In this document: in pieces, positions 2,567 to 25,554 of the stretch
Layout of the letters: every line of letters begins with the position of its first letter
Position numbering within the stretch: position 1 is the first letter of the stretch
DNA from: a virus
Direction: 5' to 3' (one strand)
DNA length: 64,000 nucleotides
Virus record (IMG/VR): IMGVR_UViG_3300044844_000428
Notes under the pieces: model-generated
Seen by the model: only the letters and a program-made list of their open reading frames with translations
Database searches by the model: none
What the model was told of the DNA's origin: nothing
Translations under genes and position numbers: made by a program

Positions 2567-2640
2567 TGGAGCGGGATAAGGGAATCAAACCCTTACTAGG
2601 AGATTGGAAATCTGCTGTTCTATCATTAAACTAATCCCGC
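2567..2640 (-). tRNA. tRNA-Gly(TCC)
   Basis: Cloverleaf GCGGGAT...ATCCCGC-T-CCA, anticodon loop TT-TCC-AA. Confidence 0.9.
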
Positions 2641-2698
2641 AATATAAAGGGCGTATTCTGTTTTTAACGTGGGCCACGCCTAGCACCATTTCTACATT

Positions 2699-2774
2699 TG
2701 GAGCCACTGAAAGGAATCGAACCCTCAACCCCCTGATTACAAGTCAGGTGCTCTACCAATTGAGCTACAGTGGC
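2699..2774 (-). tRNA. tRNA-Thr(TGT)
   Basis: GCCACTG...CT-TGT-AA...GTTCGATT...CAGTGGC-T-CCA. Confidence 0.95.
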
Positions 2775-2791
2775 ATTTAAAATTTATTAGG

Positions 2792-2865
2792 GGTGACTAG
2801 TGGGACTTGAACCCACAAAATCTCGAATCACAATCGAGGACGTCTACCAATTCCGTCATAGTCAC
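2792..2865 (-). tRNA. tRNA-His(GTG), no encoded CCA or G-1
   Basis: GTGACTA...TT-GTG-AT...GTTCAAGT...TAGTCAC-C followed by CCT. Confidence 0.85.
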
Positions 2866-2886
2866 ACCTAATAAATCTTTGTAAAG

Positions 2887-2970
2887 TGGTGGAGATCCCT
2901 GGATTCGAACCAGGTGCCCTTTGGGCACGGGTTTACAGCCCGCTGCAGTCGCCTATGCCGCTCGACCTCC
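2887..2970 (-). tRNA. tRNA-Tyr(GTA)
   Basis: Anticodon loop CT-GTA-AA, long variable arm, ends ACCA. Confidence 0.92.
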
Positions 2971-2989
2971 ATTATTTCGTATTTATAAT

Positions 2990-3064
2990 TGGACTCCATG
3001 ATCGGATTTGAACCGATACCACAAGGTTTTGCAGACCTGCACACTACCATTATGCTACATGGAG
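2990..3064 (-). tRNA. tRNA-Cys(GCA)
   Basis: CTCCATG...CT-GCA-AA...GTTCAAAT...CATGGAG-T-CCA, U73 discriminator. Confidence 0.92.
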
Positions 3065-3074
3065 AAATTATAAT

Positions 3075-3203
3075 GTGCTTGTCTTTCCAAGCTGTCACCA
3101 GTCCACTCATTGTGCACAAGCTGGTTTGGTGCACTCCTATCTTATTTAATTCCCGATAGGCTAAGGAGAAACAAGAACCCCGACCCTTACGGTTAGGCTT
3201 GTA
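3075..3203 (-). ncRNA. candidate structured ncRNA between tRNA-Ile2 and tRNA-Cys
   Basis: GC-rich spacer with hairpins CC-GTAA-GG, CCTATC/GATAGG, GTGCAC/GTGCAC and GCTTG-GAAAGA-CAAGC, plus a possible ACCAG/CTGGT pseudoknot. Confidence 0.5.
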
Positions 3204-3205
3204 TT

Positions 3206-3281
3206 TGGTGCCCCCACCAGGACTTGAACCTGGAACCTACCGATTATGAGTCGGGTGCTCTACCAATTGAGCTAAAGGGGC
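3206..3281 (-). tRNA. tRNA-Ile2(CAT), lysidine type (alternatively Met)
   Basis: GCCCCTT...CGA-CT-CAT-AA-TCG...GGGGGC-A-CCA. The body resembles bacterial ileX-type tRNAs. Confidence 0.85.
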
Positions 3282-10860: not shown

Positions 10861-10868
10861 TATTTATA
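10861..10868 (-). promoter_or_regulatory. late promoter for gp3-uvsY-uvsW
   Basis: TATAAATA on the minus strand. Confidence 0.75.
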
Positions 10869-21301: not shown

Positions 21302-22993
21302 TCAGAAATTCATCATGATTTCTTTATCTGATTCATTCCCATCATTCAACCAACCAGTAGGCACCATCTGTTCATCTATAAGTTTCATTCTATCTTCATA
21401 GATTGACTTTCTCATATCAATGTTATTAAGTGCAGTAAAATATGGATCTGTAGTTAACCATGCAAAAAGGACCAATGTCATGACAAGATCATCGTGATAT
21501 CCATCATCGGCTGCATAAGAACCTTTCGATTCGATAAACGTCGAGAATTCTGCAATGATATCAGCATCATATACTAATAGTTTATTTTCTTCTATTAGTG
21601 TTTTAAGATTATTACAACCTATTCTCTTTATTTTCTTATCAGTATTGACACCTAATCTTGATTGCCCACCAAAGCCACCGGAAATACATTGACCTTTGGA
21701 ATTTCTTCCAACTGATAGTATATTTTCATATTCAAGATCTGCATGGAGAATATAACTAACTTGTTCAGAACTATTTATCTCCATAAGTACAAATGCTTCA
21801 TTATAGTCATTAGCAATTTTATAGATGACATTTGGATATAGAAGTGGACTTATGTTATTATCTCTATATTTTGCCACAACTTTATATGGAAGTTGGGTAA
21901 CATCTATAACTGTAAATGCTGAATAGTCACCACCAACACCTTTTGATGTATCCACAACCATAACATAACTATGGAATTGTATTGGATATTCAATAATGTC
22001 TAATCCATTATTGGAGTGTATATAAGAAATAGGTCTCATTTTGGACATTACATCACTACCAATAAGTGTATAAGATGAACCCAGAAAGTGCATCAAAACT
22101 TCTTGGTTGTACTTAATTTCACCTAAAAGTTGTTTCTGTTTGGCTGCCCATACTTCATTATGTAAAGGATGTTCCCAGTATTCAACTCGTTTATGAATAA
22201 ATCCATTTATATTTCGTTCTGCTTCATCCCACATCTTCCAAAAATGGTTGAAACCAATTGGTGTTGATGTTATAATAACCTTTGAAGATTCACCAGATGA
22301 GATTGTAGGATAAGTTGAAGCAAAGAATTCTTCAGCTACTGTGCCAGGTACGCTGGACAGTTCATCAAGATATAATAGGTTAACTGACTTTCCCCTAATT
22401 CCAGACGCAGTCGTGGCAGCAATAAATGCTTTGCTTTTGTTCTCTAGAGCTACTGAACCTTTATTCCATTCGACAACACCCTGTTGAAGCCATATTGGAA
22501 GTTCTTCATACATAAGTTGAAACCGTGCCATAACTTCACGAGCAGCAGCAACTTTGTTACCCAACATAGCTACATTTTTACTTTCATTGAATACACAATA
22601 CCAGACAAGATAAGCGGCAACCGTGGTTGTATTATGAGATAGAATGTCATTAGTATAGAATGTATGTTTATCGGAATCTATAGATAAGTCATACATATTT
22701 TCAGAATATCCCAAATTATCTAATCGGATGACTTTAGAGTTTCCTAACTTAGTTCTTATATGACAACCTAATGAATTCTTGGCAAATATTTCGTTATAAT
22801 CGGAATCGATGAGAATGTGTGTATCTGCGCATTTAAGACGTAATCCAGTATCTAATATTATTTCATATACTTCATATTCTATAGTTTTATTGGATGATAG
22901 TATATCAACAAAACCATCTTCAGTTTCAACTTCCCAATCCGAAACATTGATGGATTCTACGAATTTTCTAGTTACATTATCAGAAAGACTCAT
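21302..22993 (-). CDS. gp17: large terminase C-terminal part fused to a split-intein IntC (aa 1-121)
   Basis: Intein blocks KCADTH, MYDLSID and FYTNDILSHN, then TTTVAAY. Walker B LLYLDE, ITSTP, nuclease motifs VDTSKG and HDDLVM. Confidence 0.95.
   Translation of the reverse strand: MSLSDNVTRKFVESINVSDWEVETEDGFVDILSSNKTIEYEVYEIILDTGLRLKCADTHILIDSDYNEIFAKNSLGCHIRTKLGNSKVIRLDNLGYSENMYDLSIDSDKHTFYTNDILSHNTTTVAAYLVWYCVFNESKNVAMLGNKVAAAREVMARFQLMYEELPIWLQQGVVEWNKGSVALENKSKAFIAATTASGIRGKSVNLLYLDELSSVPGTVAEEFFASTYPTISSGESSKVIITSTPIGFNHFWKMWDEAERNINGFIHKRVEYWEHPLHNEVWAAKQKQLLGEIKYNQEVLMHFLGSSYTLIGSDVMSKMRPISYIHSNNGLDIIEYPIQFHSYVMVVDTSKGVGGDYSAFTVIDVTQLPYKVVAKYRDNNISPLLYPNVIYKIANDYNEAFVLMEINSSEQVSYILHADLEYENILSVGRNSKGQCISGGFGGQSRLGVNTDKKIKRIGCNNLKTLIEENKLLVYDADIIAEFSTFIESKGSYAADDGYHDDLVMTLVLFAWLTTDPYFTALNNIDMRKSIYEDRMKLIDEQMVPTGWLNDGNESDKEIMMNF
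22631..22993 (-). mobile_element. split intein C-fragment (IntC, 121 aa)
   Basis: Ends His-Asn, followed by Thr+1 of the Walker A GKT. Confidence 0.92.
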
Positions 22994-24057
22994 CTTTTAT
23001 AGGTTTCCTTAAAAAGATTCTCACAGTACTCTTTAGATGAAAGATTATTATATTTTGCCATAAGATTAGAAATATCAGATTCTTCAATAACTTCTGTCCA
23101 ACCAAAACTACCATAATCATTTTTGCGTATAGTGTCTTTGTAATCAAATTTTAATATTTGTTCTATGTAAAAAGCGTGCTTAATAGAATCAACTGCTTCA
23201 AATAATAAAACTTTGTATTTCGACAGATATTCTTTATGATATCTATGATATATTGTCGGTTTTGAGGTTATTCCAATCTTATATTTATTTTCAGAAATCT
23301 GAATGATATAAAAACTGCCAGGATCAGTAAGATCTTTATTCCATAAAGATTTAAAATTTATCTTTGTAGATTTACTTCTATTTATAGATTCAATCTCATC
23401 TGGTGATTTACTCAATAGTGTCTTTTGCCAATTCAACTGTCTTTCAGTCCAGATTTCCCGACCTCTGTTTTTGCCATGTTTAGCAATACATATTTCCAAA
23501 CTAAAAGTTCTCTGTCTATCTGACAAGGAAGTATTTGCTTCTTCAACAGTCATACCTCGAGAAGTGTAATATTCTATCTTAGTGTTATCATTATTGTTTA
23601 TATTCTTAGTGACAACCCCCTTTTTCTTAGTGTTAGTTATTCTTTCTAACATCTCATTCTCGGGGAGTTCATTATATTTTATAAATTTCTCACTAAAAGG
23701 CGATAATTTTCCTCCATGATTATGCCAGGGATTATTATCGCCTTTCATCTTATCTATTGCCTTTTGACTGTGAACTGGACCATATTTTGTTATATACTCG
23801 CCAGGAGTCATATCATGGGACAATGGATGAGTGCCAAGATTATATGATCTGAATCCACATAATGCGCATTCACTATAATTATAGGGATCAGAACCATCAG
23901 GATATTTTAGTAAAGATTTCTTGGCTTTCATCGCGCGATAATTTCTTGTTTGATATTTTGATTTGCAATTATCTGAACAGAATTTTGCATTATGATGGCG
24001 TGGTATAAATACATCATCACATTCTTTGCATTTTATGGAATTCTTCAGCAGTGACAT
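22990..24057 (-). mobile_element. free-standing homing endonuclease between the split-intein halves (Zn-finger N-terminus, GIY-YIG/T5orf172-like C-terminus)
   Basis: CKEC...FCSDNC, CALC...H...H, GSFYIIQI...YKIGIT...R, GWTE. ATGA overlap with the IntC gene. Confidence 0.8.
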
Positions 24058-24370
24058 TTAAGGTTTCTCCAGTTTTTTTATTTCGTACCTTATATATCGT
24101 TTCTTTGCCGACACACTTCCCATGCTGTCTCGGAAACATCCCAATTGATCTAGAATTGTTATGAATGGTATTGATAAAATCTATTTGGTAATCAAATAGT
24201 TCAAATGGAACTAATCCATAATCAAGAGTAATGATTTTTATGTAAGTTCTTATGAAATATATGGGGTCGGATTTGCATTTTACATATTCTTGGACTTGGT
24301 ATTCCGTATAATCGACAGAAACACCAATAGATTTTAGGTTTGGATTTGAATTGTATGTCAAAGAAGCCAT
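24017..24370 (-). CDS. gp17: large terminase N-terminal part fused to a split-intein IntN (last 32 aa)
   Basis: YNSNPNLK...EYVKCKSDPIYFIRTYIKI...LFDYQ...PRQHGK, then CVGKETIYKVRNKKTGETLNVTAEEFHKMQRM and stop. Confidence 0.95.
   Translation of the reverse strand: MASLTYNSNPNLKSIGVSVDYTEYQVQEYVKCKSDPIYFIRTYIKIITLDYGLVPFELFDYQIDFINTIHNNSRSIGMFPRQHGKCVGKETIYKVRNKKTGETLNVTAEEFHKMQRM
24020..24115 (-). mobile_element. split intein N-fragment (IntN, 32 aa)
   Basis: Cys1 directly after the Walker A Lys; block A-like CVGKET. Confidence 0.9.
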
Positions 24371-24378
24371 AATTAGTG

Positions 24379-24407
24379 TTTACTTTTTCGTATAAATAAG
24401 ATATAAT
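24379..24407 (+). promoter_or_regulatory. overlapping early-type and late promoters facing a non-coding structured region
   Basis: (G)TTTACT-17-TATAAT with TATAAATA (24391-24398) inside the spacer. Confidence 0.7.
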
Positions 24408-24412
24408 TATCA

Positions 24413-24700
24413 CATAGCCTATATAATTACTGGACAATGGGACACCAGTTGCATGAGCAGGAACCTACCCCTGCCAGATGAGGATCGGGAATTTTCCTGT
24501 ACCCTGTAGTAGCCAATCTACAAATACGTCTGCCGTTATAGCAAAACTTGCAATGCAGACATGGACGATAAAGTTCAATATTATTCGCAGGTCGGATGTT
24601 TCTTTATCAGAATTCCAGTTTTTGCATCGGACCTACACGGCGCAGTTTATATAAACCATCAATGTAGGGCTGGAAAAATACCAAATAATCTAGTAGTCAA
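24413..24700 (+). ncRNA. candidate structured ncRNA or origin primer RNA
   Basis: ORF-free, GC-enriched, serial stems ACTGG/CCAGT, GCAGG/CCTGC, TGTAG/CTACA, GTCTGC/GCAGAC, AGGTC.GATG/CATC.GACCT, CCTACA/TGTAGG. Confidence 0.55.
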
Positions 24701-24818
24701 GTGGTTGCGAACGCAGTGAGCAATCCACCATTCGTGAACGCAGTGAGCGAATTAAAAGGTCAATATTAGTATTAATCTGTTCAACCATTCACTGCGTTCA
24801 TGGTTGCGAGCAAGCTCG
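24701..24818. repeat. three GAACGCAGTGA-capped hairpins (two on plus, one on minus) and a fourth small hairpin
   Basis: Motif at 24709-24719 (+), 24736-24746 (+) and 24789-24799 (-), each closed by a different stem. Confidence 0.85.
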
Positions 24819-24828
24819 TGTATCAACA

Positions 24829-25554
24829 TTAGAATCCAGTTGGTGTATTATTTGACCATGTATCTATTATAAAAGTATCAGGTACATTAGATTTAACAAA
24901 ATAATCCAATGGTTGATTTGGTAAAGTAACATTGGCTTTCTTGATAACACCAGATGAAGTAATGGATCCAAATATATTTACTTTCATGGTAAAGTTAAAT
25001 GTATAAATTATTTCCCGTCTTGATTGAAAATCACCATCATAAGAATCCTGGAAACTTACATTATTCAAGATGATTGGTACATCGTTTACTATATTCAAGT
25101 CTGGAATAGCATTAATCGATAGTGTATAATCTGGTGTAAAGACTGGCAAGATTTGTTCAACTACTGCTAATGCATCTTCTGTTGTTTTGGTTAAAAGACT
25201 TAATTCTATATCCAGATTGTATGGAACGGGACTGAATTGAGTTTTTAAAGTAGTTTGGTCATAACTAGCAATCTTGGTCATCTTGTTGGATTTTCTTGAG
25301 GCATCGTAAGTATAACCAACAATTTCAAATGCCATTCTAGGAAGAATAGTATTGACGTTATTTTCCAGGTTTGGATCTTGTTCCAATCTAACTAGCCATT
25401 TTTCTTTTGGACCATAAGCAATTGGTACATTGATGGTTTGTAATACAGCACCTGCTTCATCCATTCGCTCGATCTGGATTTCTGAAAACATCCGTCCGAA
25501 TGCTACAATTGCTTTCTTTATAATGCCAAAATAATATGGAGGATTGTTTAGCAT
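24829..25554 (-). CDS. gp15: tail sheath stabilizer/completion protein
   Basis: VPIAYGPKEKW, LPRMAFEI, PVPYNL, VEQILP.F.P. Confidence 0.95.
   Translation of the reverse strand: MLNNPPYYFGIIKKAIVAFGRMFSEIQIERMDEAGAVLQTINVPIAYGPKEKWLVRLEQDPNLENNVNTILPRMAFEIVGYTYDASRKSNKMTKIASYDQTTLKTQFSPVPYNLDIELSLLTKTTEDALAVVEQILPVFTPDYTLSINAIPDLNIVNDVPIILNNVSFQDSYDGDFQSRREIIYTFNFTMKVNIFGSITSSGVIKKANVTLPNQPLDYFVKSNVPDTFIIDTWSNNTPTGF

What the first reader, a model, noticed from the sequence alone, without database searches (positions are those of the whole stretch)
24701..24818. Three hairpins with an identical GA-AC-GCA-GT-GA cap on different stems and both strands
Seen: GAACGCAGTGA is closed by GTGGTTGC/GCAATCCAC (+), ATTCGT/GCGAAT (+) and CAACCAT/ATGGTTG (-). 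The stems differ but the cap is invariant, so the cap is the conserved element. Established: c(GCA)g triloops and tandem sheared G.A pairs form exceptionally stable single-stranded DNA hairpins. A similar GAGCGCAGCGAG occurs near the ColE1/pBR322 primosome assembly site. Inference: these are ssDNA or cruciform signals for primosome, helicase or terminase loading. Their orientation on both strands fits bidirectional initiation downstream of the candidate primer RNA.
Basis: partly seen in the sequence, partly recalled or inferred. Interest (0 to 1): 0.75.

Follow-up and report, generated by a model that had tools for sequence, protein, structure and literature searches.

The report
GA-capped hairpins ending a phage cassette
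Three small hairpins in a lake T4-like phage share an 11-base self-folding cap that also turns up on unrelated stems in many viruses, bacteria and archaea. Here they form the swappable end of a non-coding cassette next to the packaging gene, and nothing marks them as a replication origin.

Summary
GAACGCAGTGA occurs exactly three times in 64 kb, all within 91 nt (24709+, 24736+, 24789-), each on a different stem.

The cap is not special to this phage. It fits a grammar, GA-RC-GNA-GY-GA, made of a C-G-closed GNA triloop, two pairs and a tandem G.A. Two caps within 8-38 nt hit more than 117 viral and more than 120 cellular contigs. Stems co-vary, N is free, and the mismatches show that only the cap strand folds. 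Earlier notes of this scan saw the same cap on other DNA.

In this window the hairpins make up a 160-nt hypervariable segment (24669-24828). It ends a 458-nt ORF-free cassette between gp15 and the large terminase, in the slot where distant relatives carry gene 16. Sister phages replace the segment with 75 nt holding two other GNA-looped hairpins on the same strand. Both alleles coexist in one lake sample. The whole cassette is about 99% identical between phages whose flanking genes differ by 12-20%.

A DNA-level, REP/MITE-like hairpin element is nearly as likely.

The origin, primosome or terminase-loading reading has no support: there are no replication genes nearby, T4, RB49, T7 and N4 lack the cap, and cruciforms are disfavoured. 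Whether the cap acts as RNA or as single-stranded DNA is unresolved.

The parts
24701..24728 (+). Hairpin 1: stem GTGGTTGC/GCAATCCAC (one bulged T) with cap GAACGCAGTGA at 24709-24719
24730..24752 (+). Hairpin 2: stem ATTCGT/GCGAAT (T.G next to the cap) with cap at 24736-24746
24782..24806 (-). Hairpin 3: stem CAACCAT/ATGGTTG with cap at 24799-24789. It starts 22 nt after the gp15 stop codon, on the gp15 message strand.
24807..24818 (.). 12-nt perfect palindrome CGAGCAAGCTCG between the gp15 stop codon and hairpin 3
24735..24800 (.). Long inverted repeat formed by copies 2 and 3. Arms are 24735-24765 and 24770-24800, with a 12-13-nt exact core. This is the alternative fold.
24702..24809 (+). 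The hairpin trio bracketed by the 9-nt direct repeat TGGTTGCGA (24702-24710 and 24801-24809). It looks MITE-like, but each repeat is also a hairpin arm.
24669..24828 (.). Hypervariable 160-nt segment (allele A). In L001/L004 and in one contig of run X9 it is replaced by 75 unrelated nt with two other GAA-looped hairpins on the same (+) strand.
24405..24668 (+). Conserved structured non-coding body of the cassette. It has 14 compensatory pairs on the + strand against 10 on the - strand, and the G.U/A.C asymmetry weakly favours +.
24391..24398 (+). TATAAATA, invariant in both alleles. It matches the T4-type late promoter and lies inside a sigma-70-like match at 24379-24407 (10 of 12).
24829..25554 (-). 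gp15 tail-sheath stabiliser, the upstream neighbour
24017..24370 (-). N-terminal piece of the large terminase, the downstream neighbour. Its Walker A motif is interrupted by an intein-like Cys.

Best explanation
The three hairpins are copies of a widespread, self-folding, strand-specific hairpin module. The module is any stem capped by GA-RC-GNA-GY-GA.

In this phage they form the exchangeable distal end of a 458-nt non-coding cassette between gp15 and the large terminase.
- Hairpins 1 and 2 (+ strand) close the 3' end of a + strand RNA. That RNA starts at the conserved TATAAATA (24391) and carries the structured body.
- Hairpin 3 (- strand), 22 nt after the gp15 stop codon, closes the gp15 message.

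The caps have no U-tract. They would therefore act as barriers to 3' exonucleases and to read-through, not as classic intrinsic terminators.

Shown: the hairpins, the cap grammar, the strand specificity, the cassette architecture and its allele swap.
Inferred: the transcripts, their ends, and that the fold acts in RNA rather than in single-stranded DNA.
For: - The cap sits on co-varying stems. 31% of 132 distinct viral caps have at least 4 flanking pairs, against 3.5% in a shuffled control. The closing pair is C-G or T-A, and N takes any base. Cellular genomes give the same picture.
- GA/GA dominates all other dinucleotide pairs at that position, 138 against 7 or fewer.
- Only the cap strand folds well.
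- The orientation in the window is convergent (+,+,-), and each cap lies on the strand of the unit that approaches it.
- Allele B also has two GNA-looped hairpins on the + strand at the same distance from the body.
- TATAAATA on the + strand is invariant in both alleles, and the same motif precedes other genes in the window.
- The body co-varies, slightly better on the + strand.
- There is only one cluster in 64 kb, so it is a local feature of this junction.
Against: - There are no expression data, because no RNA run holds the stretch.
- None of the three hairpins has a U-tract.
- Across other carriers the cap strand does not follow the neighbouring genes: 25 antisense, 18 sense, 17 divergent.
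- Near gene 3' ends the cap is more often on the antisense strand, 15 against 8.
- Next to tRNA genes the cap is antisense in 4 of 5 cases.
- GNA triloops with sheared G.A are the classic stable fold of DNA. RNA usually uses UUCG or GNRA loops instead (PMC13037366, plus my own knowledge).
- G.T pairs are rare in the stems, at 3.7%.
- The + strand call for the body rests on only three distinct sequences.
Confidence: 0.4

Rival explanations
1. DNA-level, REP/MITE-like hairpin element. The caps are hyperstable single-stranded DNA fold-backs. They spread or get duplicated during replication or recombination, by template switching or slippage at the hairpin, and they mark recombination-prone cassette borders. 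Any benefit to the phage is secondary.
For: - The cap grammar equals the DNA rules for these folds (PMC13037366).
- The cap strand shows no bias relative to the neighbouring genes.
- In cellular genomes the caps sit among ordinary housekeeping genes, with no transposase or integrase nearby.
- In 5 of 60 cellular loci the caps lie 5-44 nt from a tRNA 3' end. Tandem units there re-duplicate the last 13-15 nt of the tRNA.
- The window trio is bracketed by a 9-nt direct repeat and has inverted caps at its ends.
- The segment is swapped between alleles that coexist in one sample.
- A 574-nt tract around the cassette has only 5 differences between phages whose flanks differ by 12-20%.
- Other carriers hold dispersed copies (L124, L168, L295, L392).
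Against: - There is only one cluster in 64 kb, and only one in the 103-kb SSU5 genome.
- No empty site was found.
- Each 'target duplication' is also a hairpin arm, so it may be a coincidence of similar stems.
- Both alleles keep two hairpins on the same strand at the same place, which looks selected.
- The mechanism has no identified enzyme.
Confidence: 0.33
2. One reading: single-stranded DNA or cruciform signals that load a primosome or helicase at a replication origin primed by the upstream RNA.
For: - Plain mini-hairpins occur at the G4, St-1 and alpha3 priming sites, at RSF1010 ssiA, and in N4 hairpin promoters (PMC13037366).
- phiX174 and G4 carry C-GNA-G or GNNA mini-hairpins in their relevant intergenic regions.
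- ColE1 has GAGCGTAGCGA in the non-coding stretch next to rop.
- Some arrays lie near helicase, RNase H or SbcD-like genes.
- A promoter plus a downstream element resembles T4 oriF/oriG in outline (my own knowledge).
Against: - The flanks are gp15 and TerL, inside the late structural module.
- T4, RB49, T7 and N4 have no such cap.
- The body downstream of the promoter is a co-varying structure, not an AT-rich unwinding element.
- Purine mismatches on one strand argue against a cruciform.
- The nearest relatives L005, L006 and L053 have no cassette at all.
Confidence: 0.1
3. Packaging signal: the hairpins recruit or position the large terminase, standing in for the gene-16 protein and its site.
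For: - The cassette occupies the gene-16 slot, and no gp16 homologue is found in the window.
- TerL lies within two genes of 5 of 36 distinct arrays.
- In L100 the caps sit right upstream of a gene with a terminase-type Walker A motif.
- In Mycobacterium abscessus prophages the caps lie near the start of the deposited record, upstream of the small terminase gene.
Against: - L005, L006 and L053 lack both gene 16 and the cassette at this junction.
- The SSU5 locus lies among DNA-metabolism genes.
- Allele B has different hairpins.
- The enrichment near TerL is weak and includes the window's own lineage.
Confidence: 0.07
4. No function: a local duplication artefact of short repeats.
For: Several short direct repeats are interleaved in the cluster.
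Against: - The same cap on co-varying stems recurs in hundreds of unrelated contigs.
- The segment is 160 of 160 identical in L002 and L003.
Confidence: 0.05

Closest known systems
Mini-hairpin DNA, d(GCGNAGC)/d(GCGNNAGC) (Hirao and co-workers; review PMC13037366)
   Same: A C-G-closed GNA triloop with a sheared G.A pair, a free middle base, and a strand-specific compact fold. It is found in phage regulatory and priming regions.
   Different: Here the triloop sits on only 2 pairs (A-T, C-G), followed by a fixed tandem G.A and then a variable stem. This 11-nt grammar, as a recurring genomic module across viruses and cells, is not described in that review. I found it in no paper by sequence search.
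REP/BIME extragenic palindromes of Enterobacteria and Pseudomonas
   Same: Short imperfect palindromes outside genes, often at gene ends. They are strand-asymmetric and multi-copy in some carriers, and are thought to cap messages and to be mobile.
   Different: - Only one cluster is present here.
- No RAYT-type transposase lies near the caps.
- The conserved part is the loop cap, not the stem foot.
- The same cap is shared across domains of life.
PeSL promoter/stem-loop cassettes of T4-type phages (PMC2839356)
   Same: A promoter plus stem-loops forming an intergenic cassette that is exchanged between related T4-type phages by recombination.
   Different: - PeSLs have sigma-70 early promoters and G-run/C-run stems.
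- They flank ORFans in hyperplastic regions and are multi-copy.
- This cassette lies in the core g15-g17 junction, has a late-type motif, carries about 260 nt of structured non-coding body and uses GA-capped stems.
Single-strand initiation signals (G4/St-1/alpha3 complementary-strand origins, phiX174 PriA site, RSF1010 ssiA) and N4 virion-RNAP hairpin promoters
   Same: Hairpins with GNA or GNNA loops acting on one DNA strand.
   Different: Those sites lack the tandem G.A cap. They belong to ssDNA replicons or to phages with a virion RNAP. N4 promoters carry GGA or GAA loops, and mini-vRNAP interacts with the central G (PMC13037366). Here the middle base is C.
CUUCGG hairpins in T4 intercistronic RNA (my own knowledge: Tuerk et al. 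1988)
   Same: An unusually stable loop motif reused on many different stems at gene borders.
   Different: That is an RNA tetraloop. Here the loop is a triloop of the type best known from DNA.

Membership tests
Mini-hairpin DNA (GCGNAGC class) | GNA triloop closed by C-G | tested here: met
   All three copies read C-GCA-G. Across carriers the middle base is A, C, G or T.
Mini-hairpin DNA (GCGNAGC class) | Second pair G-C, giving GC-GNA-GC | tested here: not met
   The window has A-T (AC-GCA-GT). The GC variant is the second most common inner pair, 23 of 138, and occurs in allele B.
Mini-hairpin DNA (GCGNAGC class) | Extraordinary thermal and nuclease stability as DNA | not testable with these tools
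   The ViennaRNA DNA parameters carry no terms for this fold. Melting of oligos is needed.
Single-strand initiation signal / origin | Lies at a mapped origin or beside replication genes | tested here: not met
   The flanks are gp15 and TerL. T4, RB49, T7 and N4 have no cap.
Single-strand initiation signal / origin | Primase- or PriA-dependent priming on the folded strand | not testable with these tools
   This needs a biochemical assay.
Intrinsic terminator | G+C-rich stem followed by a U-tract | tested here: not met
   No terminator-like sites in 23900-25000. Only 13-15% of family members have a T-rich tail.
REP/BIME-like element | Many dispersed extragenic copies in one genome | tested here: not met
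   One cluster in 64 kb. The rest of the genome could not be searched. The feature is met in other carriers.
REP/BIME-like element | Associated RAYT/IS200-type transposase | tested here: not met
   No transposase appears among the most frequent families for 115 viral and 137 cellular neighbour ORFs. Only the top 25 families per search were listed.
MITE | Terminal inverted repeats plus a target-site duplication | tested here: inconclusive
   There are 11-nt inverted caps and a 9-nt direct repeat. But the repeats double as hairpin arms, and no empty site was seen.
PeSL cassette | Sigma-70 early promoter with a G-run/C-run stem-loop flanking ORFans in hyperplastic regions | tested here: not met
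   The cassette lies in the core g15-g17 junction, has no ORF, uses different stems and has a late-type TATAAATA (PMC2839356).
PeSL cassette | Cassette exchanged between related phages by recombination | tested here: met
   Allele swap and a 574-nt near-identical tract inside diverged flanks.
N4-type hairpin promoter | 5-7-bp stem with a GGA or GAA 3-nt loop, read by a virion RNAP | tested here: not met
   The middle base of the loop is C in all three copies. The feature is as described in PMC13037366.

The most novel reading that the evidence does not exclude
It may define an undescribed class of protein-free mobile or recombinogenic DNA hairpins, or a universal single-strand end signal. The phage cassette here is one domesticated instance.
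Probability: 0.25. Interest if true: 0.8.

Novelty: new variant of a known kind. Interest (0 to 1): 0.55.

Why it matters
If the cap is a general module, it gives a simple sequence rule for finding strand-specific hairpin signals in any genome. It also raises a testable question: why do phages and cells reuse a fold known for its stability in DNA at gene and RNA-gene ends?

For this phage, it marks the border of a non-coding cassette that moves between lineages and sits where the small-terminase gene is expected. That makes the g15-g17 junction a good place to study cassette exchange in T4-like phages.

If instead the hairpins are ordinary message end-caps, the finding is modest but still corrects an origin annotation.

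Tried and rejected
- The whole genome is not held. The 143-kb and 69-kb metagenome contigs that carry the locus could not be pattern-searched. 'One cluster only' therefore holds for 64 kb, not for the whole genome.
- Megablast against phage records found no match.
- Rfam shows no family on the hairpins or on the body, at gathering thresholds and at E up to 10, and none in ten other carrier loci.
- Full-text searches for the cap, its variants and likely spurious peptides found only unrelated primer hits or nothing.
- No RNA holder was listed among the sequencing runs, so expression could not be examined.
- Laying contigs gave the allele swap but no empty site.
- A covariance model of the conserved 3' part of the body found no further homologues in 45 sources. 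Exact-word scans found only the same two alleles.
- tblastn with gene-16 proteins of distant relatives found nothing in the window. The cassette is not a decayed gene 16.
- The terminator scan found nothing.
- The neighbour-gene tally gave only a weak TerL signal (5 of 36 arrays). It gave no enriched family in cells.
- A protein-binding operator or iteron reading was rejected. The stems co-vary around the cap, and the same cap occurs in unrelated hosts.
- A k-turn reading was rejected because there is no 3-nt bulge.
- A hammerhead or other small ribozyme was rejected because the conserved cores are absent.

Full report
**Observation.** The window reads GTGGTTGC-GAACGCAGTGA-GCAATCCAC at 24701-24728 (+) and ATTCGT-GAACGCAGTGA-GCGAAT at 24730-24752 (+). 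On the - strand it reads CAACCAT-GAACGCAGTGA-ATGGTTG at 24806-24782. The 11-mer, exact or with one mismatch, occurs nowhere else in 64 kb. The chance expectation is 0.43, and 1 of 100 shuffles reached three hits anywhere. A relaxed search for GA-NN-GNA-N'N'-GA adds one chance-level hit.

With RNA parameters each hairpin folds as stem, tandem G.A, two pairs and triloop. The cap strand is 0.9-2.9 kcal/mol more stable than its complement. The DNA parameter set has no terms for these motifs. Copies 2 and 3 can also pair with each other over 13-16 bp.

**Context.** The window is a T4-like myovirus from lake water, with its genes on the - strand. The hairpins lie in a 458-nt ORF-free gap (24371-24828). 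On one side is gp15 (24829-25554). On the other is the first piece of the large terminase (24370-24017), whose Walker A motif runs into an intein-like Cys.

More distant relatives, at 41-51% gp15 identity, mostly have a gap of about 420-970 nt here. In ten of the twelve such gaps I inspected the longest ORF is a 134-143-aa protein in the gene-16 position. I did not test it against any family. L005, L006 and L053 join gp15 directly to TerL. Only the window's own clade (L001-L004) has the non-coding cassette. No relative of that ORF is detectable in the window.

**The cassette.** TATAAATA on the + strand (24391-24398) is invariant in both alleles and lies inside a 10-of-12 sigma-70-like match. 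In the window as a whole TATAAATA is no more frequent than chance (14 found, 13.5 expected). Several copies do stand just upstream of gene starts, for example at 10861, 6619 and 40084.

Downstream lies about 260 nt of conserved sequence with compensatory changes. There are 14 such pairs on the + strand and 10 on the - strand. Several G.U alternatives on the + strand would be A.C on the - strand. This favours the + strand, but it rests on three distinct sequences.

Next comes about 30 nt of variable linker, then the hairpins.

**Allele swap.** In L001 and L004 the 160 nt from 24669 to 24828 are replaced by 75 unrelated nt. These contain two other hairpins whose GAA triloops lie on the same strand as copies 1 and 2. 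One is a 15-nt GT-GA-GC-GAA-GC-GA-AC fold. The other is a 7-bp stem with a GAA loop. Both alleles occur in one freshwater run, where a contig skips exactly those 160 letters (24669-24828) and has 75 other letters in their place.

Between the window and L002/L003 the hairpin segment is 160 of 160 identical. A tract from 24285 to 24858 has 5 differences in 574 nt. In contrast gp15 is 88% identical, and the adjoining TerL coding sequence (24150-24299) shows 8-10 differences per 50 nt. L001 has the closer gp15 (97% aa) but the other allele. So the cassette is exchanged between lineages as a unit.

**The cap elsewhere.**
- Of 132 distinct viral caps, 31% have at least 4 consecutive flanking pairs, against 3.5% when the flanks are shuffled. 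Stems are unrelated in sequence. The closing pair is C-G or T-A. The triloop's middle base is A, T, G or C. Cellular genomes give 26% against 3.8%.
- In the fetched loci, hairpins of the form stem-XX-2 bp-GNA-2 bp-YY-stem have GA/GA 138 times. Every other combination occurs 7 times or fewer. The inner pairs are AC (the anchor), GC (23) and CC (6).
- This grammar, Y-GA-R plus C-GNA-G, is what structural work on DNA mini-hairpins and sheared G.A pairs predicts (PMC13037366, plus my own knowledge).
- Stem mismatches on the cap strand are purine.purine 17 times and pyrimidine.pyrimidine twice. G.T occurs 7 times and A.C twice. So only the cap strand is selected to fold, which argues against cruciforms.
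- Only 13-15% have a T-rich tail, and G.T pairs make up 3.7% of stem pairs.

**Carriers.**
- SSU5-like phage-plasmids of E. coli, Salmonella and Klebsiella have a single double-cap locus next to RNase H. It is the only one in SSU5's 103 kb.
- Mycobacterium abscessus prophages have caps near the start of the deposited record, upstream of the small terminase gene.
- Giant-virus bins and other T4-likes also carry it.
- T4, RB49, T7 and N4 have none. Lambda has one, inside the coordinates I know as gene P, at chance level.
- The phiX174 F-G intergenic region and the annotated G4 complementary-strand origin have only plain mini-hairpins. ColE1 has GAGCGTAGCGA at 1332, in the non-coding stretch next to rop.
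- Rfam has no matching family, and sequence searches of the literature found nothing.

**Neighbours and orientation.** Around 36 distinct viral arrays the commonest neighbour families are TerL (5), helicase (3), SbcD-like (3), RNase H (2) and late sigma (2). Around 48 cellular arrays no family is enriched and no integrase or transposase stands out.

The cap strand does not follow the flanking ORFs: 25 antisense, 18 sense and 17 divergent. In 5 of 60 cellular loci a tRNA 3' end lies 5-44 nt from the caps. In L356, L384 and L349 tandem units each repeat the last 13-15 nt of the tRNA, and the caps are antisense to the tRNA in 4 of 5. This is a DNA-level duplication signature. It agrees with earlier notes of this scan, which I treated as leads.

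**Interpretation.** The cap is explained by folding rules, so its invariance need not mean a sequence-specific protein. It is a single-strand element.

For this window two readings remain close.

*RNA reading (0.4).* Two converging late units meet here, and each is closed by hairpins that are stable on its own strand. This fits:
- the +,+,- order;
- hairpin 3 lying 22 nt after the gp15 stop codon;
- the conserved + strand TATAAATA;
- the same two-hairpin tail in allele B.

*DNA reading (0.33).* The hairpins are REP/MITE-like fold-backs at a recombination-prone cassette border. This fits:
- the DNA-type loop;
- the lack of orientation bias in other carriers;
- the tRNA-end duplications;
- the 9-nt direct repeat around the trio;
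- the allele swap.

The origin or primosome model (0.1) and a packaging-site model (0.07) have only circumstantial support, and several observations count against them.

**Novelty.** The fold is a variant of the known mini-hairpin class, and the cassette behaviour resembles PeSLs (PMC2839356) and REP elements. However, defining features of each family are not met. I found no description of the 11-nt grammar as a cross-domain genomic module. The scan itself has met this cap before on other DNA.

Noticed in passing
window 21302-24370 (-): The large terminase is in three ORFs. The N-terminal piece ends in Walker A 'PRQHGK' followed by an intein-like Cys and then stops (24370-24017). A 355-aa ORF with weak HNH/NinG-like hits lies in another frame (24057-22990). 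The rest of TerL has an intein C-terminal motif at residues 85-121 (22993-21302). The first and third ORFs share a frame. L002 diverges completely from the window beyond about 24116.
   Followed up: partly
window 24285-24858 vs L002/L003: A 574-nt tract covering the whole non-coding cassette plus the ends of both flanking genes has 5 differences. The flanks differ by 12-20%. L001 has the closer gp15 but the other cassette allele. This points to recent horizontal exchange of the cassette.
   Followed up: yes
window 24371-24828; L005, L006, L053; L024 and others: The gene-16 slot between g15 and g17 comes in three states among relatives. It holds a 134-143-aa ORF in ten of twelve gaps inspected in distant relatives, nothing at all in L005, L006 and L053, or the structured non-coding cassette in the window's clade. 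No relative of that ORF is found in the 64-kb window.
   Followed up: partly
L356 1600-1845; L384 4005-4300; L349 3730-3990; L342 4820-5062; L315 2380-2625: In Nostocoides, a Woesearchaeote and haloarchaea, cap hairpins lie 5-44 nt from tRNA 3' ends. They sit in tandem units that each repeat the last 13-15 nt of the tRNA. The caps are antisense to the tRNA in 4 of 5.
   Followed up: partly
L392, L399, L424, L372, L335 and viral L295: A sub-family reads GTCATYCY-cap-RGRATC, with almost the same short stem in Nitrospina, Bacteroidota, Calothrix and a viral contig. It partly occurs as 30-nt tandem arrays, and AC and GC cap variants are mixed in one contig (L295).
   Followed up: no
L311 (SSU5 79133-79168, - strand): The only two caps in the 103-kb SSU5 genome form a nested double hairpin that overlaps the annotated start of the RNase H gene on the opposite strand. 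It lies at the edge of a 437-nt non-coding gap and is conserved in the E. coli, Salmonella and Klebsiella phage-plasmid relatives that matched.
   Followed up: partly
L107 5274-6207: An unrelated viral contig with a five-cap array also carries a GOLLD RNA (202 bits) and a tmRNA-like match about 3.5 kb away.
   Followed up: no
window 2567-3281 (-): A cluster of six tRNA genes (Gly, Thr, His, Tyr, Cys, Met).
   Followed up: no
L435 (ColE1) 1332-1342: GAGCGTAGCGA lies in the non-coding stretch next to rop, without a flanking outer stem. I did not check whether it lies in a mapped primosome assembly site.
   Followed up: partly
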